In this document: piece by piece, positions 413 to 43,216 of the stretch
Layout: each line of letters opens with the position of its first letter
Position numbering within the stretch: the stretch's first letter is position 1
Assembly (NCBI GenBank): GCA_038087875.1
Contig: CM075988.1
Span: 9,860,001-9,924,000 of the forward strand
DNA length: 64,000 bases
Reading direction: 5' to 3'
Source: Malacoraja senta
Taxonomy: Eukaryota
Made by a program: the position numbers and the translations under genes
The notes under the pieces: generated by a model
What the model was told of the DNA's origin: nothing
Databases searched by the model: none
Seen by the model: the letters and a program-made list of their open reading frames with translations, nothing else

Positions 413-552
413 GACAGCGGTATCAGAGTTGGGACTGGACGGAGAGGTGACTGAGTAGAGAGGTAGCTCCAGACCAGGACACTGAGAGTAGGAGAGAGAG
501 TAGAAATTAATGACCGACCGTACGACCGTCCGGAGAAAGATTCTAGAGGCCC

Positions 553-1752
553 ATGGCTTCAGGGAGTGGTGGTTCTGAGGGTGGTGGGTGGCAGACTGTA
601 GGTAAGGAAAAGGGGGGCTCTAAGAGAGAGGCATCGAGCGAAAGACCTGAAATGTCAGGAGATGAAGGAAGTAAAGTTAGGAGAACTAAAATTATTGAAG
701 AATTCGTCGTGCTGTTTAAAGTTAAAGGAACAAATCACGGAGATGCAGGATTTAGAGCAGTGAATCCATTAAAAATTACCACCGCTTTGGAGAGCCAGAT
801 AGGTAGGGATTTTCAGGCCAAGATTCTGTATAATGGGATGTTAAGAGTTTGTTGCAAAGACAGAAAACAGTTTAATGACGCTAGGGGTGTGGGGAAGTTG
901 GTGGTCAAGGTGGAGAGTTTGGTCCCTAGAGGAAGAGAGCAGGGAATAAAGGGAGTGGTGTATGGGATGTATGATGGCTTGTCTGAGAAGGAGATCTTAG
1001 AAAATGTTAAGGGGGCCCAGGTAATTGATGTTGTGAGATTTAAGAGTAGGAATGGAGTCAGGGACCAGCCGGTCCTGCTTACGTTCAAAGATGGAGTACT
1101 GCCACAGAGAGTGTTTCTTGGGAGTATGGCGTATCAAGTGAGGGAGTACATTAAACCACCGTTGCGCTGCTATAACTGTCAGAGGTTTGGACATGTTGCT
1201 GGGTCTTGTCGGGGTAAAAGAAAGTGCGCAAAGTGCGGTGGAGATCATGCAATAAAAAATTGCAAGGCAGAGGCTCCTAAGTGCCCTAACTGTGATGGGG
1301 ATCATGCAGCAGGGTTTCATGGTTGTAAGCGCTTTGTTCAGGCGAAGCGAGTACAGGAAGTGAAGGATCAGAACAACGTGTCATATGCAGAGGCAGCTCA
1401 AAGGGTGGCTAGAGAACGCGGAGATGTGAGCGCTGGGACTAGAGTGGTGCTAGGAAGCCAGATCACTGTGCCAAACTTGCCGTCGGCTTTTCCATCTGAT
1501 ATGTTGATTTTTAATAAGGAGTCATTTCTGTCTTTTGTTTCTGATGTGCTGGTAGGAGCTAAGAAAGCAGCTAACCGGTCAGATATCATCAGGTTAGTGG
1601 TGGGGGCAGCTGAAAGGTTCCTCAGTGTAAATCAGTTGCCAGAAAAGTTGCATCAATACATGATGGAGAGTCAGTGTATGGAGAGGTCACAGTTGTCGAG
1701 AGCTAGCAGTATGGAGTATGTCAGTGAGGTGGATGATGGTGATCCTCATTAA
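553..1752 (+). CDS. LINE ORF1p, gag-like nucleic-acid-binding protein with three zinc knuckles
   Basis: 399 aa; CYNCQRFGHVAGSC, CAKCGGDHAIKNC, CPNCDGDHAAGFHGC followed by the SYAEA motif typical of I/Jockey-group ORF1. Confidence 0.93.
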   Translation: MASGSGGSEGGGWQTVGKEKGGSKREASSERPEMSGDEGSKVRRTKIIEEFVVLFKVKGTNHGDAGFRAVNPLKITTALESQIGRDFQAKILYNGMLRVCCKDRKQFNDARGVGKLVVKVESLVPRGREQGIKGVVYGMYDGLSEKEILENVKGAQVIDVVRFKSRNGVRDQPVLLTFKDGVLPQRVFLGSMAYQVREYIKPPLRCYNCQRFGHVAGSCRGKRKCAKCGGDHAIKNCKAEAPKCPNCDGDHAAGFHGCKRFVQAKRVQEVKDQNNVSYAEAAQRVARERGDVSAGTRVVLGSQITVPNLPSAFPSDMLIFNKESFLSFVSDVLVGAKKAANRSDIIRLVVGAAERFLSVNQLPEKLHQYMMESQCMERSQLSRASSMEYVSEVDDGDPH

Positions 1753-4700
1753 CATCATAATGTTTTATATACTTCAATGGAACGCCCGGAGTCTGATTGG
1801 AAATGGTCAAGAGTTAAAGAGATTTGTTGATGAATTTAAAGAAGCACCAGAATTAATATGTATCCAAGAGACATGGTTAAAGCCCTGTTTAGATTTTGTA
1901 ATCCCAGGTTATGAATGTGTGCAATTAGATAGGTCTGATAGATCAGGTGGGGGTTGTGCAACTTTTGTTAAGACTGGGTTGCAGTATAGGAAAGTTGATA
2001 TTAATTCTAATCTTGAAGTTTTGGCTGTGGAAGTTTGGAGCAGCCAGAATTCTATCATTGTGATAAATTATTATAACCCCTGTCAACCCTTGATATTGTC
2101 AGATTTTGATGAGATAATGGAGAAGGTAAGGTGTCCTGTTCTATGGATTGGAGATTTTAATGCGCATAATCCTTTATGGGGTAGTGATCACAGGGATAAA
2201 AATGGTGTTATTGTTGAAGAATTTCTAGACAAGTATGAGTTGGTATTGTTAAATGATGGAAGGCCGTCTAGGTATAATATTGTGAGAAACACCTGCAGCC
2301 ACATAGATTTATCAATTGCTTCATCAAATTTCGCAAGAATTGGTGAATGGGATGTAATGGATAGATATACACTGGGTAGTGATCATTATCCAATTTTATG
2401 TAGGTTTGGTAGGGATTTGAGGAGAGAAGTGGAAAAGAAAGTCCCTAGATATAACTTTTATCAGGCCAAATGGGATAAATTCCAAGAGAAGGCTCAAAGT
2501 TTAGTTGGAGAGGTTAATAGTGAGGGTTCTGTAGATAGTTGGAATACTTCCATTAGTCTCATGATTCATGAGGCAGCTTGTTGTACTATTCCTGTGAAGC
2601 AGGAACTTAGGTCCCGTATGTCTGTTCCTTGGTGGAATAAAGAATGTGATGAAGCTGTAAGGAATAGGAATATAGCCTATCGAAAATTAAGAAAGTATCC
2701 AATTTTGGTCAATGCAATGGAGTACAAGAGGCTAAGGGCAGTAGCAAGACGAGTTGTAAAGGATGCAAAGAGGAATAGTTGGAGGAAGTTTTGTGGTACG
2801 CTAGGCCCGGAAACTCCAGTAAGGCATTTGTGGTCAGCTGTGCGTAGAATGTCAGGAGTATATAAAAGAAGTTTGTTACCAGTGTTGCAGAAGGGTGAGG
2901 TGGTAGCAGTCACCAATAAGGAAAAAGCAGACATGTGTGTTGACAGTTTTCAAGCAGTGCATAGATCAGAGAGCATGGGAGTGGAGAGGTGTAGAAAGAG
3001 AACCGAGATGATGGCAGTTAATCAGTGGAAGCTGGAGAGGAGTTTAGTAAATGATAATACCTTTAATTTGTTTTTTACCATAAAAGAGTTGAAGGATGCA
3101 ATTATGTCTGGGGCAAATACCACCCCGGGGAGAGATAGGTTGTCGTATGAGTTATTTAAACATCTGGATGATATTGTACTTGATGAAATCTTAGCTTTGT
3201 TTAATACTGTGTGGGCAGAGGGTTATTTACCAAAGGAATGGAAACATGCAGTCGTGGTCCCTATTTTAAAACCGGGTAAAGAGGCATCTGACCCTAGTTC
3301 ATATCGCCCTATAGCGCTCACAGCAGTGCTCTGTAAAATTATGGAGAGGATGGTAACCAACAGACTAGTTTATTTTTTAGAAACCAGAGGACTATTTGTT
3401 GATGTACAGAATGGCTTTAGGAATGGAAGGTCTACAATGGAGTCTGTATCAGTTTTGGATCAGGATATTAAAAGGGCATTTAGAAGCAAGGAAACAGTAG
3501 TGAGTGTATTCCTTGATATTGAGAAGGCATATGATTCTTTGTGGAAGGAGGGATTAATGATTAAAATTTTTGACTTGGGAAACAGGGGACGAATGTTCAA
3601 CTGGATTAAGGATTTTTTATTGAATAGAACAATACAAGTAATGGTTGGTAGTGTCAGATCGGAGTCTGTAGAAATAGAGAATGGAACCCCGCAGGGAAGT
3701 GTTATCAGTCCAGTTTTATTTAATATCATGATAAATGACATATTTTGTAAATTAGAGAGAGGATTTGGTCTGTCTTTGTTTGCAGATGACGGGGCCATCT
3801 GGAAAAGAGGTTGTAATGTAGAGTTTGTTTTAAAACAGATTCAAAGAGTGTTAGTGTCTGTAGAGGAATGGGGGAACACATGGGGCTTTAAAATCTCTGC
3901 CTCTAAGACTAAATATATGGTATTTGGTTTTAAAAGAAAGTTACCTAAGTTAGGGCTGTATATGTATGGGTCTCTATTGGAGAAGGTAAAGGTTTTTAAG
4001 TTTTTGGGTGTTTGGTTTGAAGAGCGTATGACTTGGGCTGTGCATGTAGGTAAAATTGTGTTGAAGTGTGAAAAAGTTCTGAATGTTATGAGAAGTCTGG
4101 TTGGGTGTGAGTGGGGGGCCAACAGGGAGACAATGTTGCTAATTTATCAGGCCATGATCAGATCTTCTCTTGACTATGGGTGTTTTGTGTATGGGTCTGC
4201 GTCTAAAACTGTTCTGGCTAGGCTAGATGTGTTGCAGGCAAAGGCTTTGAGGCTTTGCTGTGGAGCCTTCAGGACTTCCCCAGTCCCTGCCCTGATTGTT
4301 GAAATGGGAGAAATGCCCTTATGGTTAAGGCGCATTAAGCTAGGGTTACATTATTGGGCTAAACTTTGTGGGTGTAATGTTACCTTCCCAGCAAGGTGTT
4401 TGTTGCAAGAGGTTGATGATGGTAACAAATATAACACATTTTTTGTCGTTATAAATCAGTGGGCTAGGAAGCTGGGTTTGGAACAAGGGGGTATTATAGA
4501 GCATACAATAAGGCTACCTGTGCCCTATTGGGTTCTTCCTGAACTGTTTATTGAGCTTGCTTTTCTTCAGGAAAAAGATAAGCGCGAGGTGACTCCAAGA
4601 ATAGTGGAATATCTTAATTCAATCAGTGAGAGTACTTTGATTGTTTTTACAGATGGATCTAAAGATCCAGTTAGTGGGAGAGCTGGGTTTGGAGTGTATG

Positions 4701-5497
4701 TGGAGCAGCTTGGGTTGAAGATTGGCCGGCGCATTTCTGATGGAAGTTCTGTTCTCACGACTGAATTAATGGCAATTCAATGGGCTCTATGGTGGATTGA
4801 GGAAGCCAGTTTTAGAGAAGTCATTATCTGTTCTGATTCTGCAGCTGCTCTTGAAACTTTAAGAGTAGGGAAATCTAAAGCTCGTCCTGACATTCTAAAT
4901 GAAATCTTGAGTGTGTTTTCTAGAATTGGGTTTGCGTGTAACATCACTTTTTGCTGGGTTCCCGGGCATGCTGGGGTGAGGGGGAATGAGCAGGTGGACC
5001 TCATAGCAAAGGAGAGTTTAAGAAGAGAAATAGATATCCATGTATCATTGGGGAGAGTGGAACTGAGAGAAATAATTAAAGAGGGCTTAACAAAAGAATG
5101 GCAGAGAGGATGGGAAATGGAAGTCAGGGGTAGACACTACTTTTCTATACAATCTGAAGTTAGGAAAATATGTTTCTGTACATCTCTGTCCCGTAGGGAC
5201 TCAGTTAAACTGTGTAGATTGAGGTTGGGACACTGTGGGTTAAATTACTATTTGTGCATTGTAGGGAAACATGTTTCTGGCTTGTGTGAATGTGGGAGTA
5301 ATGAGACAGTTAAGCATGTTTTCCTAGAATGTAAAAAGTATAGGGTAGAAAGAAAAGTATTATTTGTTAGACTGACAGGACTTGGAGTTGAGGCTTTTTC
5401 TGTTTTATCTTTGTTTGGACACAATGAGAAACATCAACTGATATCCAGGGCTGTTCTTCAATTCCTGCAAGTTACAGGACTGTATATAAGAATTTAG
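1718..5497 (+). CDS. LINE ORF2p: AP endonuclease - reverse transcriptase - RNase H - C-terminal CCHC (true start may be ATG 1733 or 1760)
   Basis: 1259 aa open frame; APE (QWNA, QETW, GDFNAH, SDHYP), RT (YRPIAL, QNGFR, DIEKAYD, GTPQGS, FADD, KFLG), RNase H (FTDGSK, CSDS, WVPGHAGVRGNEQVD), CECG..ETVKHVFLEC. Confidence 0.96.
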   Translation: MSVRWMMVILINIIMFYILQWNARSLIGNGQELKRFVDEFKEAPELICIQETWLKPCLDFVIPGYECVQLDRSDRSGGGCATFVKTGLQYRKVDINSNLEVLAVEVWSSQNSIIVINYYNPCQPLILSDFDEIMEKVRCPVLWIGDFNAHNPLWGSDHRDKNGVIVEEFLDKYELVLLNDGRPSRYNIVRNTCSHIDLSIASSNFARIGEWDVMDRYTLGSDHYPILCRFGRDLRREVEKKVPRYNFYQAKWDKFQEKAQSLVGEVNSEGSVDSWNTSISLMIHEAACCTIPVKQELRSRMSVPWWNKECDEAVRNRNIAYRKLRKYPILVNAMEYKRLRAVARRVVKDAKRNSWRKFCGTLGPETPVRHLWSAVRRMSGVYKRSLLPVLQKGEVVAVTNKEKADMCVDSFQAVHRSESMGVERCRKRTEMMAVNQWKLERSLVNDNTFNLFFTIKELKDAIMSGANTTPGRDRLSYELFKHLDDIVLDEILALFNTVWAEGYLPKEWKHAVVVPILKPGKEASDPSSYRPIALTAVLCKIMERMVTNRLVYFLETRGLFVDVQNGFRNGRSTMESVSVLDQDIKRAFRSKETVVSVFLDIEKAYDSLWKEGLMIKIFDLGNRGRMFNWIKDFLLNRTIQVMVGSVRSESVEIENGTPQGSVISPVLFNIMINDIFCKLERGFGLSLFADDGAIWKRGCNVEFVLKQIQRVLVSVEEWGNTWGFKISASKTKYMVFGFKRKLPKLGLYMYGSLLEKVKVFKFLGVWFEERMTWAVHVGKIVLKCEKVLNVMRSLVGCEWGANRETMLLIYQAMIRSSLDYGCFVYGSASKTVLARLDVLQAKALRLCCGAFRTSPVPALIVEMGEMPLWLRRIKLGLHYWAKLCGCNVTFPARCLLQEVDDGNKYNTFFVVINQWARKLGLEQGGIIEHTIRLPVPYWVLPELFIELAFLQEKDKREVTPRIVEYLNSISESTLIVFTDGSKDPVSGRAGFGVYVEQLGLKIGRRISDGSSVLTTELMAIQWALWWIEEASFREVIICSDSAAALETLRVGKSKARPDILNEILSVFSRIGFACNITFCWVPGHAGVRGNEQVDLIAKESLRREIDIHVSLGRVELREIIKEGLTKEWQRGWEMEVRGRHYFSIQSEVRKICFCTSLSRRDSVKLCRLRLGHCGLNYYLCIVGKHVSGLCECGSNETVKHVFLECKKYRVERKVLFVRLTGLGVEAFSVLSLFGHNEKHQLISRAVLQFLQVTGLYIRI

Positions 5498-5588
5498 TTC
5501 AAACTTTGACCTGTGGAGGGCAGTAATACGCTTAGCAGCGTCTACACTGCCGGAATCCTACAAGAAGAAGAAGAAGACAGCGGTATCA

Positions 5589-14938: not shown

Positions 14939-16561
14939 CATGTTTCAAGTGTTTAGTACTTACTGGAACCCTCTCCCAGTTCACAGAAGTTCAGCTCAGT
15001 TTAGTTTATTGTCACGTGTACCAAGGTACGGTGTGTTGCTTGCTAATCAGTCAGCGGAAAGACAGTACATGATTACAATTGAGCCATTTATAGTGTATTG
15101 ATACATGATACAGGAAATAACGTTTAGTTAAAGGTAAATCCAGTAAAGTCCGATCAAAATGGCCACCAATGAGGTAGATGGTAGTTCAGGACTGCTCTCT
15201 AGTTTGTTTCTTCCTCACTTATTCAGTGAGCACTTGCTCACATGACTGCAGTGCTTTCTGAGTCCCAGCATTAAGTAACTTCCACTCTCGTCCTTGTACA
15301 ATGGATCAGCTCCTTCCTTGGTCCCCATCCAATTTTTGAAGGCTGCTCACCTTCAGGCCTCAGATGTCGTGACCTGATAATTGACGCTTCGAGCACAATC
15401 TCCGCGGAGCTCCCGTGAGCTGCACTGAAATCGTCATGTTTCGAGAATAACTCCGAGGGCAGAAATTTTATTTGTACCAAAGTAATGTCAGGTCACAAAA
15501 GGCAATTACGAAATGTCCCACTCAAGCGTGGAGTCGCCCACACTAGCCACATGCTGCAACTAATTTAGCTGAGTGGAATTTCTATCTCAGCTAAATTAAT
15601 TAAATGTCTTACAAAAGCCACATAAAAAATAATGGAAGAATTTATTCATGGCATACCTAATTAAAAATCTCATCTGCATAGAGCAATGTTCAGATTACTT
15701 GAAGCAAAATTTAAATTTGCAATCCTGTGATCCAAATCTACATCACAGTAATATTACAGTATGGCGACTTTCTGCATTTATTCTTTGAGCAGTGGCTTGA
15801 AAGTGGCTCTAGAGGTGAGCACCAGTTAATGCTGCTGCCACAATTCCAACAGCCCAGGATTGATCCTGAACTCTAATACTGTCGGCATGAAATCTCCCAT
15901 TCACTGCATGAGTTTCTCCTGAGTGTTCTGGTTTCCTCCCACATCTCAAAGTCATGCTTCTTGATAGGTTCATTGGCCACTGTAAATTACTACTAGTAGG
16001 AGTGCCTATCGTGGGCAAAGTCAATGCACAGGGTGTGAGAAGGGACAGATTAAAGGGAAATGAGGAGAATGGGACTGATAGGAATTCTCCTCAAGGTATG
16101 CCTACTTTGAAGATGTTCTCCTCTTCTCTACGATCAGAGTTCTGCAACATCCTTTCTTGCTGCACCCCCCCTCTGTGCTTTTCAGACCTTTCATTCATTT
16201 GTTCTTTGTACCCTTTCATACCTCTGGTTTCCCTCTCCCTGACTCTTGATCTGAAGAAGGGCCTCGACTCTTCTCTTAGGGGTAACGGAATCAAGGGATA
16301 TGGGGAGAATGCAGGAACGGGGTACTAATTTTGGATGATCAGCCTTGATCATATAGAATGGCTGAAGGACTCGAAGGGCCAAAATTGCCTATTCCTGCAC
16401 CTATTTTCTATGTTTCTATGACCCAAAACATCACCTATTCCTTTTCTCCAGAGATGCTGCCTGACCCGCTGAGTTACTCCTGCATTTTGTGTCTATCTGA
16501 GGATTTTTTGTGAGTTGGCATAGACCTGCTGTGCTGAAAGGCCTCACTTCATGTCAAGAGA

Positions 16562-16615
16562 AGGGCGGGAGATTGCAACCTTCACATGGTCCACCCTGTT
16601 TCGACTAATGCAATT
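16562..16615 (+). ncRNA. Minimal HDV-like ribozyme motif
   Basis: P1 AGGGCGG/CCACCCT (1 mismatch), P2 GATTGCA/TGCAATT, P3 ACC/GGT, L3 TTCACAT, G for P1.1, stub P4 TTTCGA, J4/2 CTAA with putative catalytic C16605. Confidence 0.75.
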
Positions 16616-16702
16616 AACCCGACGTGCACAAACAAATAGATGTCGTTTTTCATGCCACTTGATCTACAACTTTAGGCTGTGCGCGGCATACGCAAGAAGA
16701 AG
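16563..16702 (+). mobile_element. 140-bp non-autonomous retroposon with 5' HDV-like ribozyme and (AAG)3 tail
   Basis: Perfect 12-bp TSD ATGTCAAGAGAA at 16551-16562 and 16703-16714; AAGAAGAAG tail; HDV-like fold at the 5' boundary. Confidence 0.85.
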
Positions 16703-17779
16703 ATGTCAAGAGAAATATGAAGCAATATGAGAAAATATCTGTCTTTCTGTTGCAAAATAAAGCACTGGAGGAACTCAGCAGATCAGACAGAATCTGTAAA
16801 GTGTATGGTAAGGTGATGTTTCAGGCTCAAAAGTATGGAGAAGGGTTTTGACCTGAAAAGTCACCTCTCCATTGTCTCCACAGATGCTGACTGACCCTAT
16901 GAGTTCCTCCATCACTTTGTATTTTGCTCAAGAATCCAGCATTCGCAGTTTCTCGAGTCTCTCTCTGTCTTTGTGCTGGTAGTTGTCATCATTTACCTGT
17001 AGGCTGCTGTCATTGAGAACATCCAATGGAGATTCTTTTTACCCATTTTGCCTGGTGGAAATTATCTGATAAGGTTTTGAAGCAAGGTGACATCCACATT
17101 TGGGAATAGTTGCACAACGACAGCAGAGTGCACCCACAGGCTCATTGGTTCTGCCTCATTTAGCACTGTTTATTCAACCTGACAATCTGAATTCATAAAG
17201 TCATACAGCGCGGAAACAGAGCTTTAGCCCACAGAGCCCACGCAACCCATGAAGCACACATGAAGCTATGAAATAGAGCTACCAAGTAAATTGTTCCATC
17301 TATAAATCAGTTTCAAGAAACTAATAAAAGGTCTTTATGCAATACCTCTCACAACATTCAAAGTAGCTCCAGAGAAAAAAATATATTTAGGGAAATATGG
17401 ATCCAATTAATGTTCAGTAAGATCGTATCAACAACAATAATATTAAAGATCAAATAGGTAGATACAAAGACCAGAAATTTTATTTAATTACTAACTGAAT
17501 GATAATAATGTCCAGGAGCTCAGTATAATTTCCACCTCTTAATTGTCACCCTTTTAAGAATTCAAATGTTTAAACTTCCACCCTGTCCAATCTGCCTTCC
17601 ATGGCATTATATGTTTTTATCTCATTAAATGAAATGAGATGCACTCTGTTCATCTTTCCCTGATATTTACACCCTATTTCTTGTGCCAGTAAATCCTCTC
17701 CGCGTCCTCTCCCAGTGCCACATTATTATTTTCCCAATATGAGGACTAGAATTGTGCACAGTACCAGCATGTGGTCTAT

Positions 17780-42318: not shown

Positions 42319-42764
42319 CACAATCGCAGGTTTGATGATCATCAAAAGAATCATTGAAATTACGATGTAGATTCATGGCAAAATACAATCTGGGTAATTG
42401 TTTCATCATTAGATTCAGCTTCTAAAATGAATAAATTAAAAGTAAATAAAAGATTAATAAACATAGATGCTGAAAAACTGTAATAAACCACAAAACATCA
42501 AGAGTCCAGAGTCAGAATTGTTTAGTCATTGGCAATGGGAATGGAACAATGACATTCTTACTTGCTTCAGCTTTATGGGCACATTAACACAACAACACAA
42601 CAAGTACAGTAAATAATGATACAATAAATTATCAGTTATATTTGATAACCAGACTATAATTGTGCAAGTCAAAGTACATGGTGCAATCTTTAAAAAGTCC
42701 ATTGTAGTTTGCTGCTGAGTTGGGGTTATAGTTAGGGTTGTTCAGGATGGTTCAAGAGCCTGAT

Positions 42765-42939
42765 TTGTGTTCTTCTTATCAAATCCACACACAAGATTAC
42801 TTGTTCAACTAGAGCTGAACACACTTCTCGGCATCTGCATACAATGGTGCCTGTCTTGCGCTTCTTGTGCTTCTTGTGCGTGGTGGTGGAAAGATTGGTG
42901 GAAACAGGGCCGCGACGTGAATGGTCTTTCCTTGACCCC
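42765..42939 (-). mobile_element. 175-bp non-autonomous retroposon with 5' HDV-like ribozyme and AAG tail
   Basis: TSD (C)AAGAGCCTGAT at 42753-42764 and 42939-42950; minus-strand 3' end GATAAGAAGAACACAA; inserted in an older Rex-like fragment (42500-43080). Confidence 0.85.
42888..42939 (-). ncRNA. Minimal HDV-like ribozyme motif (P3 damaged in this copy)
   Basis: P1 GGGGTC/GGCCCT with G1.U wobble, P2 GGAAAGA/TCTTTCC (perfect), P3 CCA/CGC, L3 TTCACGT, G for P1.1, stub P4 TTTCCA, J4/2 CCAA. Confidence 0.72.
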
Positions 42940-43216
42940 AAGAGCCTGATGGATGATAGGAAGAAGCTCTTCTTGAAGTTAGAAGTTCATGCTCCCGTCC
43001 TTTCTTCCTGATGATAGGAGCGAGATGAGAGCGTGGCCAAGGTGGTGTAGGTCTTTGTTGATTTAGGTTGCCTTCTTGAATTTCCTGTTATATTTCTAGA
43101 GTAAGTAAATTGAGAATAACAAAAATTAAAGCCTATAGGTCAGGCAGCATCTGTGGAAAGAATAATATTTTGGTTCATAGACGTGTTAGCAAAATATATT
43201 GAACTTTAAGAGGTTT

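What the first reader, a model, noticed from the sequence alone, without database searches (positions are those of the whole stretch)
42753..42950. Second, different HDV-headed retroposon whose helices covary with the first
Seen on the minus strand: a 175-bp insert with 11-12 bp TSD ((C)AAGAGCCTGAT) and GATAAGAAGAA tail. The body is unrelated by eye to the 16563 element, but the head has the same architecture: GGGGTC AA GGAAAGA CCA TTCACGT CGC GGCCCT G TTTCCA CCAA TCTTTCC. The loop and junction nucleotides are conserved between the two elements (TTCAC[G/A]T, CCCTGTTTC.AC.AAT), while the outer five pairs of P2 are replaced yet still pair 7 of 7 and P1 differs but still pairs with a G1.U wobble. 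Compensatory change between two independent families is the strongest in-window evidence that the fold is selected. P3 is broken in this copy (CCA vs CGC; GCG would restore it), so this copy is probably dead (inference).
Basis: partly seen in the sequence, partly recalled or inferred. Interest (0 to 1): 0.86.

Follow-up and report, generated by a model that had tools for sequence, protein, structure and literature searches.

The report
Ribozyme-headed retroposon, CPEB3-like, in fish genome
This is a decayed copy of a short mobile element whose first 52 bases encode a small HDV/CPEB3-type self-cutting RNA fold, and the same genome holds a set of such elements whose heads closely resemble a ribozyme so far reported only from mammals.

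Summary
Window 42753-42950 (minus strand) holds a ~175-nt retroposon copy with a 12-bp target-site duplication and an AAG-type tail. The family has at least 2,047 first-look candidates in this 1.94-Gb genome.

Its first 52 nt fit an HDV-like double pseudoknot without P4. The window copy alone has CCA, so it is a dead copy.

All 10 other copies scanned hit Rfam's mammalian CPEB3 ribozyme model at 26.9-36.3 bits (cut-off 35).

A genome-wide scan with that model found 39 places above the cut-off, up to 64.2 bits. These are full ribozymes with P4. They head a ~3.1-kb LINE with an (AAG)n tail and several older families.

Across seven families, 18 of 25 helix pairs change on both sides while L3 and the C-N-A-A junction stay fixed (0 of 500 shuffles reach this).

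Most likely mechanism: the head cuts the element out of a longer transcript, which sets its 5' end, and an (AAG)n-tailed LINE copies it back into the genome. Cleavage was not tested and no RNA data were available.

This is a new variant of a known kind. It offers a possible outgroup and source for the CPEB3 ribozyme.

The parts
42939..42950 (-). Upstream copy of the target-site duplication, ATCAGGCTCTTG. T 42940 is position -1. G 42939 may be G1 of the element.
   Evidence: An identical 12-mer lies at 42764-42753.
42888..42939 (-). 52-nt head with the HDV/CPEB3-type fold and no P4. P1 42939-42934 pairs with 42911-42906. J1/2 is 42933-42932. P2 42931-42925 pairs with 42894-42888. P3 42924-42922 (CCA, broken; family GCG) faces 42914-42912 (CGC). 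L3 TTCACGT is 42921-42915. G is 42905. The linker TTTCCA is 42904-42899. The putative catalytic C is 42898, followed by CAA at 42897-42895.
   Evidence: One search gives the sequence. RF00622, 16 bits, E 0.11 on 42949-42888; family consensus; covariation.
42781..42887 (-). Body of the family B element, with no coding potential. No similarity was found to the untranslated ends of either (AAG)n-tailed LINE.
   Evidence: conserved across 30 copies; local alignment z-scores at most 3.3.
42765..42780 (-). 3' tail GATAAGAAGAA followed by CACAA. Other copies end GAT(AAG)2-4.
42753..42764 (-). Downstream copy of the target-site duplication, ATCAGGCTCTTG.
16563..16702 (+). The family head is GGGGTGG GA GATTGCA ACC TTCACGT GGT CCACCCT G TTTCGA C TAA TGCAATC, also without P4. 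The tail is (AAG)3.
   Evidence: 2,642 first-look candidates; 30 copies aligned.
426..5576 (+). Full-length LINE with both frames open: ORF1 547-1752 and ORF2 1664-5497 (endonuclease, reverse transcriptase, RNase H). Tail (AAG)5 at 5562-5576. Target-site duplication ACAGCGGTATCA at 414-425 and 5577-5588. It has no ribozyme head. It is one of two candidate drivers of families A and B.

Best explanation
The finding is one decayed copy of a ~175-nt non-autonomous non-LTR retroposon, called family B here. It carries no promoter. Its first 52 nt instead encode a minimal, P4-less HDV-like ribozyme of the CPEB3 sequence type.

Proposed cycle:
1. A copy lying inside any transcribed region is read through by the host polymerase (inferred).
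2. The head folds into the nested double pseudoknot and cuts the RNA just 5' of G1. The released RNA starts at the element's first base and still carries the whole ribozyme. The fold and the fixed 5' boundary are shown; cleavage is inferred.
3. A LINE-encoded endonuclease and reverse transcriptase that uses (AAG)n 3' tails nicks a target, primes on the tail and copies the RNA. This leaves a 10-14-bp target-site duplication. The duplication and tail are shown; the driver is inferred.

The driver is either the ribozyme-headed ~3.1-kb LINE C (my preference, about 55%) or the RNase-H-bearing LINE at window 426-5576 (about 35%).

The window copy has lost P3 (GCG to CCA) and should no longer cut.
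For: Retroposon: at least 2,047 candidates, with 40 of 40 scored matching at 92-100%. Flanks are unrelated in 30 aligned copies. An exact-match script found repeats of at least 9 bp around 19 of 30 B copies and 21 of 30 A copies.

Fold: P1 is fully paired in 28 of 30 copies, P2 pairs 7 of 7 in 27 of 30, and P3 pairs in 27 of 30. 255 genomic copies carry the exact 52-nt consensus head.

Sequence type: 10 of 10 other B copies hit RF00622 at 26.9-36.3 bits, 1 of 10 over the 35-bit cut-off, and no other ribozyme family matched.

Relatives with P4: a genome scan with RF00622 gave 51 matches at E<=1e-3 among 59 scored, 39 over the cut-off, best 64.2 bits. The 18 fetched fall into LINE C (9), families D (2), E (3), F (1), G (1) and B (2).

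Covariation over 10 sequences of 7 families: 91.5% of cells are paired, against 77.1 +/- 1.6 in shuffles and 38-46% when partners are slid. 18 of 25 pairs change on both sides, against 8.3 +/- 1.8, with 0 of 500 shuffles as high. L3, the G after P1 and C-N-A-A stay fixed. Position N varies (C, U, G), as at the second position of the model's own CGAA (one search prints the model consensus).

5' end: family A copies begin at GGGG directly after the duplication in 6 unambiguous and 4 G-ambiguous cases. In contigs of 4 runs, loose ends pile up at 42939/42940 with unrelated flanks.

No alternative promoter: no Pol III A or B box in A or B, and family A has an internal T5 run (the box motifs are recalled).

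Drivers: LINE C has a ribozyme head, an endonuclease plus reverse transcriptase ORF of 940 aa in the copy read, an (AAG)4 tail and an 11-bp duplication. Its 3' ends number 222 candidates at 98-100% identity. The LINE in the window has an (AAG)5 tail and a 12-bp duplication.

P4 is dispensable in known 'minimal' HDV-like ribozymes (PMC10879173, passage read).
Against: No cleavage assay was run and there are no RNA ends.

The window copy scores only 16 bits. 9 of 10 B copies stay below Rfam's cut-off, and 0 of 10 family A copies hit any ribozyme family at E<=10.

Nested-only folding gives no energy signal: z is +0.60 (B), +0.20 (A), +0.90 (window copy) and -1.79 (LINE C). For B the minimum-energy fold is a different hairpin. 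This method cannot model pseudoknots.

In family B a T precedes G1 in 148 of 255 exact heads (58%), against about 29% expected from composition. The 5' junction is therefore not always exactly at the predicted cut site. Family A shows no such bias.

The families are related by descent, and I drew the tested structure from these same sequences. Both inflate the shuffle controls.

The driver is not identified. Two unrelated LINEs (24% identity) share the tail, and neither shares 3' sequence with A or B.
Confidence: 0.78

Rival explanations
1. The head of families A and B is an inherited relic. It descends from a LINE C-type ribozyme, but after losing P4 it no longer cuts. The 5' end would be set by something else, such as a transcription start, with the head acting as an internal promoter as Pr77 does in L1Tc.
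For: P4 is missing. Family A hits no Rfam ribozyme family. T at -1 is enriched in B, 148 of 255. There is no energy signal. A dual promoter and ribozyme head is documented for L1Tc/NARTc (PMC3383444, abstract in the listing).
Against: A and B differ at 5 of 7 P2 pairs, 2 of 3 P3 pairs and part of P1, yet both keep full pairing and the same unpaired core. That is hard to explain without selection on the fold in the source copies after P4 was lost. P4-less HDV-like ribozymes exist in nature. No Pol III boxes were found.
Confidence: 0.12
2. The fold is selected, but mainly as a binding site for the LINE protein or as a stabilising 5' cap substitute. Cleavage would be secondary.
For: In R2 the protein binds a pseudoknot inside the ribozyme region, and the fold is proposed to aid translation (PMC6765202, passages read).
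Against: A and B encode no protein, so a translation role is moot. The residues kept fixed are those that are single-stranded in the CPEB3 model's core, including the C of C-N-A-A. The I-like LINE with the same tail has no such head, so the head is not required by that machinery.
Confidence: 0.07
3. The resemblance is chance: a short motif plus fortuitous complementarity in an ordinary SINE.
For: The window copy alone scores E 0.11. The linear motif occurs by chance elsewhere.
Against: 0 of 118 chance motif hits carry the helices. 10 of 10 B copies hit the same model. Sister families score up to 64.2 bits. The covariation controls are clear.
Confidence: 0.01

Closest known systems
HDV-like ribozymes at the 5' end of non-LTR retrotransposons (R2, RTE, Baggins, L1Tc)
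   Same: The ribozyme is the first thing in the element. The cut lies upstream of the catalytic core, so the released RNA keeps the ribozyme. The elements need no promoter of their own and ride on co-transcripts (PMC6765202 and PMC8256844, passages read). LINE C of this genome fits this pattern directly.
   Different: The host here is a fish-like vertebrate genome. The sequence type is CPEB3-like by Rfam. Insertion is dispersed with 10-14-bp duplications and (AAG)n tails, unlike rDNA-specific R2. The primary papers (Webb 2009; Ruminski 2011) were not held, so I could not check which vertebrate examples they list.
Non-autonomous elements that keep a LINE's HDV-like head: NARTc and SIDER of trypanosomatids, and R2 SIDEs of Drosophila
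   Same: These are short, non-coding, LINE-dependent elements that begin with the ribozyme (PMC3383444, PMC4035085 and PMC3414825, abstracts in the listing).
   Different: Those are internal deletions that still share 5' and 3' sequence with their LINE. A and B share only the ribozyme architecture and the AAG tail with LINE C, have lost P4, and outnumber it: at least 2,047 and 2,642 candidates against 222 LINE C 3' ends.
Mammalian CPEB3 intronic ribozyme (Rfam RF00622)
   Same: P3 GCG/CGC, L3 UUCACGU, the G after P1, J4/2 CGAA or C-N-A-A, a G-rich P1 with a G1.U wobble, and in family E even the P4 sequence (alignments).
   Different: It is a single copy in one intron and conserved in mammals. 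[quoted passage not shown] Here it is multi-copy and heads mobile elements. No listed hit lies on a contig carrying a CPEB ZZ-domain exon. A and B lack P4.
Minimal HDV-like ribozymes and theta ribozymes (P4-less)
   Same: No P4 domain; the same double pseudoknot core (PMC10879173, passage read).
   Different: Those come from metagenomes and gut phages, next to tRNA genes. These sit at the head of a vertebrate retroposon with thousands of copies.
Hammerhead-bearing SINE-like elements and retrozymes (Schistosoma Sm-alpha, plant and animal retrozymes)
   Same: Non-autonomous retroelements processed by an embedded self-cleaving ribozyme (PMC6765202, passage read).
   Different: They use a different ribozyme class and depend on tandem or circular intermediates. 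Here there is a single cut site per element and the copies are dispersed.

Membership tests
HDV-like ribozyme (nested double pseudoknot) | P1 helix of 6-7 bp that starts at the cut site with a G1.U wobble | tested here: met
   GGGGTC pairs with GGCCCT. All 6 pairs are present in 28 of 30 copies, including the window copy.
HDV-like ribozyme (nested double pseudoknot) | P2 helix that crosses P1 (pseudoknot) | tested here: met
   GGAAAGA pairs with TCTTTCC, 7 of 7 in 27 of 30 copies. 6 of 7 P2 pairs change on both sides across families.
HDV-like ribozyme (nested double pseudoknot) | P3 of 3 bp closing a ~7-nt L3 | tested here: met
   The family has GCG/CGC with L3 TTCACGT, and P3 pairs in 27 of 30 copies. 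It is not met in the window copy itself (CCA against CGC).
HDV-like ribozyme (nested double pseudoknot) | Catalytic C in J4/2, followed by N-A-A, just before the P2 3' strand | tested here: met
   C-CAA in B, C-TAA or C-GAA in A, C-GAA or C-TAA in families C to G. The two A's are invariant and the C nearly so in alignment A1.
HDV-like ribozyme (nested double pseudoknot) | P1.1 mini-helix between L3 and the base or bases after P1 | tested here: inconclusive
   L3 and the following G are the same letters as in the CPEB3 model consensus. The pairing itself cannot be scored with these tools.
HDV-like ribozyme (nested double pseudoknot) | P4 helix | tested here: not met
   A and B have a 6-nt linker instead. 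P4 is present and covaries in families C to G. Known minimal HDV-like ribozymes also lack P4, so this does not exclude membership.
HDV-like ribozyme (nested double pseudoknot) | Site-specific self-cleavage 5' of position 1 | not testable with these tools
   This needs a bench assay or 5'-OH RNA sequencing. No RNA run with raw reads was available.
Rfam RF00622 CPEB3_ribozyme | Score at or above the gathering cut-off of 35 bits | tested here: not met
   The window copy scores 16 bits. 1 of 10 other B copies passes, at 36.3 bits. Sister families C to G do pass, at 45.8-64.2 bits.
Rfam RF00622 CPEB3_ribozyme | Single conserved copy in an intron of the CPEB3 gene | tested here: not met
   The hits are multi-copy and head retroposons. 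None of the 51 listed matches lies on the four contigs with CPEB ZZ-domain exons. Only 59 of about 102,000 rough candidates were scored, so an intronic copy is not excluded.
Canonical SINE (Pol III transcribed) | Internal A and B boxes, or a 5S- or 7SL-derived head | tested here: not met
   No match even to loose box patterns in A or B, and family A has an internal T5 run (box motifs recalled). The element is SINE-like in size and dependence only.
LINE-dependent non-LTR retroposon (target-primed reverse transcription) | Target-site duplications, a simple-repeat 3' tail shared with a LINE, many dispersed copies | tested here: met
   The (AAG)n tail is shared with two LINEs.

The most novel reading that the evidence does not exclude
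The mammalian CPEB3 ribozyme is not a mammalian invention. It would be a domesticated 5' head of an old vertebrate retroposon lineage that is still mobile in this fish-like genome. That lineage has also produced natural P4-less 'minimal' HDV ribozymes, which drive SINE-like families with thousands of copies. These heads would supply the outgroups whose absence so far blocks reconstruction of the ribozyme's deeper ancestry.
Probability: 0.4. Interest if true: 0.85.

Novelty: new variant of a known kind. Interest (0 to 1): 0.7.

Why it matters
HDV-like ribozymes at the heads of retrotransposons are established. Three points go beyond what I could find in print (literature searches).

1. Sequences that pass Rfam's CPEB3 model by a wide margin occur as heads of mobile elements in a non-mammalian genome. 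[quoted passage not shown] This makes the origin of the CPEB3 ribozyme by capture of a retroposon head directly testable.

2. Natural P4-less versions occur in a vertebrate at thousands of copies. This gives 'minimal' HDV-like ribozymes a eukaryotic context and a plausible function.

3. The set of seven families amounts to a natural mutagenesis series of the fold.

The key primary papers (Webb 2009; Ruminski 2011) were not available to me, and I consulted no supplements. Part of this may therefore already be on record.

Tried and rejected
RNA evidence: the look-up of sequencing runs listed no holder on record as RNA and only Logan contigs. Contigs cannot show RNA ends, so nothing can be said about expression or cleavage. 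In read laying the contig from run X8 that reaches the head-flank junction has only 29 letters on the element side. That is under the tool's 31-letter rule, so I do not claim a shared orthologous insertion. No clean empty-site joint was seen.

More P4-less families: the pattern TTCACGTNHNN{2,3}CCCTGTTTC gave 328 genome hits against 1 for the control. All 20 that I fetched were decayed copies or subfamilies of A or B. A regex over the 253 kb in hand found no further family.

This serves only as a control.

Partner LINE by sequence: the A and B bodies show no significant similarity to the 5' or 3' untranslated ends of LINE C or of the I-like LINE, nor to each other.

LINE clade: the atlas look-ups gave only generic reverse-transcriptase clusters. 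Named relatives of the I-like ORF2 are teleost proteins at 40-51% identity. The clade of LINE C is undetermined.

Nested-only folding gave no signal.

Earlier scan notes: none.

The whole-window Rfam scan at gathering thresholds found nothing.

Papers PMC3308841 and PMC3159031 are not held. Searches were too loose to be informative.

Full report
WHAT IS IN THE WINDOW. On the minus strand, ATCAGGCTCTTG occurs at 42950-42939 and again at 42764-42753. Between the two copies lies a ~175-nt insert. It begins GGGGTC AA GGAAAGA CCA TTCACGT CGC GGCCCT G TTTCCA C CAA TCTTTCC and ends GATAAGAAGAA CACAA. The last G of the upstream repeat can equally be G1 of the element, so the duplication is 10-12 bp.

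The window is contig C12:9860001-9924000 of an unnamed 1.94-Gb assembly.

IT IS A REPEAT FAMILY WITH SHARP ENDS. A search of the window's own genome with the insert gave 2,047 first-look candidates. All 40 that were scored matched at 92-100% identity. I call this family B.

In 30 aligned copies the similarity begins at GGGGTC and stops at GAT(AAG)n, and the flanks are unrelated. An exact-match script found flanking repeats of at least 9 bp around 19 of 30 copies, and 17 of those 19 start with A.

The element at 16563-16702 (family A) behaves the same way. It has 2,642 candidates, with 40 of 40 scored matching at 89-100%. It has an (AAG)n tail, and repeats of at least 9 bp flank 21 of 30 copies.

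THE P3 PREDICTION. The P3 5' strand is GCG in 26 of 30 copies, GCA in 2, ACG in 1 and CCA in 1, which is the window copy. P3 pairs in 27 of 30 copies, P2 pairs 7 of 7 in 27 of 30, and P1 is fully paired in 28 of 30. All three helices are intact, with a 6-bp P1, in 23 of 30.

The exact 52-nt consensus head occurs 255 times in the genome, against 0 for the reversed control.

THE FOLD AND ITS SEQUENCE TYPE. The family heads parse as follows.

- Family B: P1 GGGGTC/GGCCCT with a G1.U wobble; P2 GGAAAGA/TCTTTCC; P3 GCG/CGC; L3 UUCACGU; a G; a 6-nt linker where P4 would be; then C-CAA.
- Family A: P1 GGGGTGG/CCACCCT; P2 GATTGCA/TGCAATC; P3 ACC/GGT; the same L3; a G; a 6-nt linker; C-TAA, or C-GAA in a longer subfamily.

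Rfam's gathering scan of the whole window finds nothing. At E-value thresholds, the only hit on the window copy is the mammalian CPEB3 ribozyme model RF00622, at 16 bits and E 0.11.

On other copies the signal is consistent. 10 of 10 B copies hit RF00622 at 26.9-36.3 bits, and one of them passes the 35-bit cut-off. 0 of 10 A copies hit any ribozyme family.

FULL CPEB3-TYPE RIBOZYMES IN THE SAME GENOME. Searching the whole genome with RF00622 gave 51 matches at E<=1e-3 among 59 scored candidates. 39 are over the cut-off, and the best scores 64.2 bits and is 84 nt long. The same search rings in 0 of 14 control genomes.

I fetched 18 of these places. Nine are the 5' end of one LINE, called LINE C here. 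Two belong to family D, three to E, one each to F and G, and two are B copies with an extra C.

A second scan of 8 of these loci against all 4,227 Rfam families returned only RF00622, at 45.8-64.2 bits, with full-length alignments that include P4. Family E aligns to the model consensus through the P4 sequence itself. It is old and rare, with 4 places in the genome at 86-100% identity.

LINE C. One full copy, read across two adjacent fetched stretches of one contig, runs about 3.14 kb. It consists of the ribozyme head; an open frame of 940 aa with endonuclease and reverse-transcriptase domains and no RNase H; an (AAG)4 tail; and an 11-bp duplication, ACAGAACAAAA.

Its 5' ends are few, with 22 candidates at 97-100% identity. 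Three places share only the first ~100 nt and then diverge, so the head has been joined to other bodies. Its 3' ends number 222 candidates at 98-100%, the usual 5'-truncation pattern.

Family B's head is close to LINE C's. They share J1/2, P3, L3 and the P3 3' strand. They differ in P1 and P2 by paired changes and by the loss of P4.

COVARIATION. I aligned ten heads from seven families: A1, B, C, D (two), E (three), F and G. I then counted pairs for P1, P2 (as a pseudoknot), P3 and P4.

- 91.5% of 224 cells form standard pairs. Shuffles give 77.1 +/- 1.6 (0 of 500 reach the observed value), and sliding the partners by 1-3 columns gives 38-46%.
- 18 of 25 pairs change on both sides, against 8.3 +/- 1.8 in shuffles (0 of 500).
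- The covariation score is 0.465 against 0.201.
- By helix, both-side changes occur in 3 of 7 P1 pairs, 6 of 7 P2 pairs, 2 of 3 P3 pairs and 7 of 8 P4 pairs.

The unpaired core does not move. Six of the seven L3 letters, the G after P1, and the C and two A's of C-N-A-A are invariant or nearly so.

Caveats: I drew the structure from these same sequences, the families are related by descent, and several rows are single decayed copies. One of them (F) is shifted by one column in P1.

As a separate control, the linear motif TTCACGT-N9-10-GTTTCNACNAA does occur by chance in metagenome contigs, but 0 of 118 hits have complementary P1, P2 and P3.

THE 5' END. If the ribozyme sets the 5' end, copies should begin at G1. 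Family A does: GGGGTGG follows the duplication directly in 6 unambiguous cases, and in 4 more a G is shared with the duplication.

In contigs of four public runs from four coded organisms, loose ends pile up at 42939 and 42940, and the flanks have low agreement (0.35-0.41). This means many copies end exactly there.

One thing does not fit neatly. In family B a T precedes G1 in 148 of 255 exact heads (58%), against about 29% expected from base composition. In four clear cases the T lies outside the duplication. My first 30-copy sample overstated this, because the query itself began with that T. The excess T could reflect untemplated addition at the end of the cDNA, microhomology at second-strand joining, or a target preference. 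I could not decide between these.

WHO MOVES IT. Two LINEs in this genome have (AAG)n tails and 11-12-bp duplications that start with A.

- LINE C, described above.
- A full-length element in the window itself at 426-5576. Both of its frames are open. ORF2 carries endonuclease, reverse-transcriptase and RNase H domains. It has an (AAG)5 tail and the duplication ACAGCGGTATCA.

The second LINE has no ribozyme. Among 40 scored 5' ends, none extends upstream of window position 426. Its named relatives are teleost-fish proteins at 40-51% identity. The two LINEs are only 24% identical in protein sequence.

Neither shares untranslated sequence with A or B. I favour a LINE C-type driver because of the shared head, but this is inference.

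WHAT ARGUES AGAINST, OR IS MISSING.
- No cleavage was tested.
- No RNA data could be used. No run is on record as RNA, and only assembled contigs were served.
- Nested-only folding gives no energy signal: z is +0.60 for B, +0.20 for A, +0.90 for the window copy and -1.79 for LINE C. For B it prefers a competing hairpin between the P2 5' strand and the linker. The method cannot model the pseudoknots.
- Most B copies stay just under Rfam's cut-off, and A is invisible to it.

No Pol III A or B box is present in A or B, and A has an internal T5 run (motifs recalled). This removes the usual SINE promoter but does not prove read-through transcription.

COMPARISON WITH WHAT IS KNOWN. Ribozyme-first non-LTR elements are established. 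[quoted passage not shown] Non-autonomous derivatives that keep the head are known from trypanosomatids and from Drosophila R2 (abstracts in the listing). P4-less 'minimal' HDV-like ribozymes are known from metagenomes and phages, with their origin stated as undetermined (PMC10879173, passage). The kind is therefore known.

What I did not find in eight full-text searches is any report of three things: CPEB3-type heads on retroposons, such elements in fishes other than R2, or P4-less forms in a eukaryotic repeat. [quoted passage not shown] Domestication of transposon ribozymes has been proposed in general terms (PMC7761336, passage). The primary surveys by Webb 2009 and Ruminski 2011 are not held and I read no supplements, so prior mention cannot be excluded.

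None of the 51 listed RF00622 places lies on the four contigs that carry CPEB ZZ-domain exons. Only a small sample of candidates was scored.

VERDICT. The finding is a dead copy of a ribozyme-headed, LINE-dependent retroposon.

The wider result is that this genome holds a radiation of retroposons headed by CPEB3-type HDV-like ribozymes. It includes a young LINE and two abundant P4-less SINE-like families, and the covariation leaves little doubt that the fold is selected.

Whether the minimal heads cut, which LINE moves them, and whether the mammalian CPEB3 ribozyme descends from this lineage are open and testable.

Noticed in passing
window 426-5576 (+): A full-length LINE with both frames open. 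ORF1 has CCHC knuckles. ORF2 has endonuclease, reverse-transcriptase and RNase H domains. It has an (AAG)5 tail and a 12-bp duplication. Other genomic 5' ends are 93-100% identical and start at staggered positions. Named relatives are teleost proteins.
   Followed up: partly
G000 C1:217550485-217553634 (L082 plus L099) and about 220 other places: LINE C is a ~3.14-kb single-ORF LINE whose first ~73 nt are a full CPEB3-type ribozyme (57-64 bits), with an (AAG)n tail. Three places share only the first ~100 nt, so the head has been joined to other bodies (for example L088).
   Followed up: partly
L091, L092, L094 and G000 C8:54074558-54074627: Family E is an old four-copy family. Its ribozyme aligns to the mammalian CPEB3 model through the P4 sequence, and its L3 is UUCUCGU. 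What it belonged to is unknown.
   Followed up: partly
L093:175-574: A family F head is followed, after ~150 nt, by sequence that reads like the C-terminal part of a LINE reverse transcriptase (...LQLYRALVRPHLQYCVQIWSP...). It may be an internally deleted LINE or a nested insertion.
   Followed up: no
Family B genome-wide; window 42940: A T precedes G1 in 148 of 255 exact heads, about twice the expected frequency, and sometimes lies outside the target-site duplication. Family A shows no such bias. This is unexplained.
   Followed up: partly
L055:700-796: Another short stretch ends in (AAG)4 (...TTTAATTCGC AAGAAGAAGAAG). It is unrelated to A, B or either LINE and may be a further family using the same tail.
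   Followed up: no
window 42524-42667 and 43004-43075: Both flanks of the B copy are themselves high-copy repeats, judged by contig depth in four runs. The element therefore sits in repeat-rich DNA.
   Followed up: no
window 16449-16480 and 16870-16899: A motif ...CAGAGATGCTGCCTGACCCGCTGAGTTACTCC... recurs on both sides of the family A copy and in several fetched loci. It probably belongs to an abundant unrelated SINE.
   Followed up: no
L060:1501-1635 and 1744-1905: A family A copy and an older family B copy (85% identity to the window copy) lie about 110 bp apart.
   Followed up: no
L061-L080: Family A has at least three subfamilies. A longer one has J4/2 CGAA and P1 3' strand CCGCCCT (a T.G wobble), where the window type has CTAA and CCACCCT (T-A).
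   Followed up: partly
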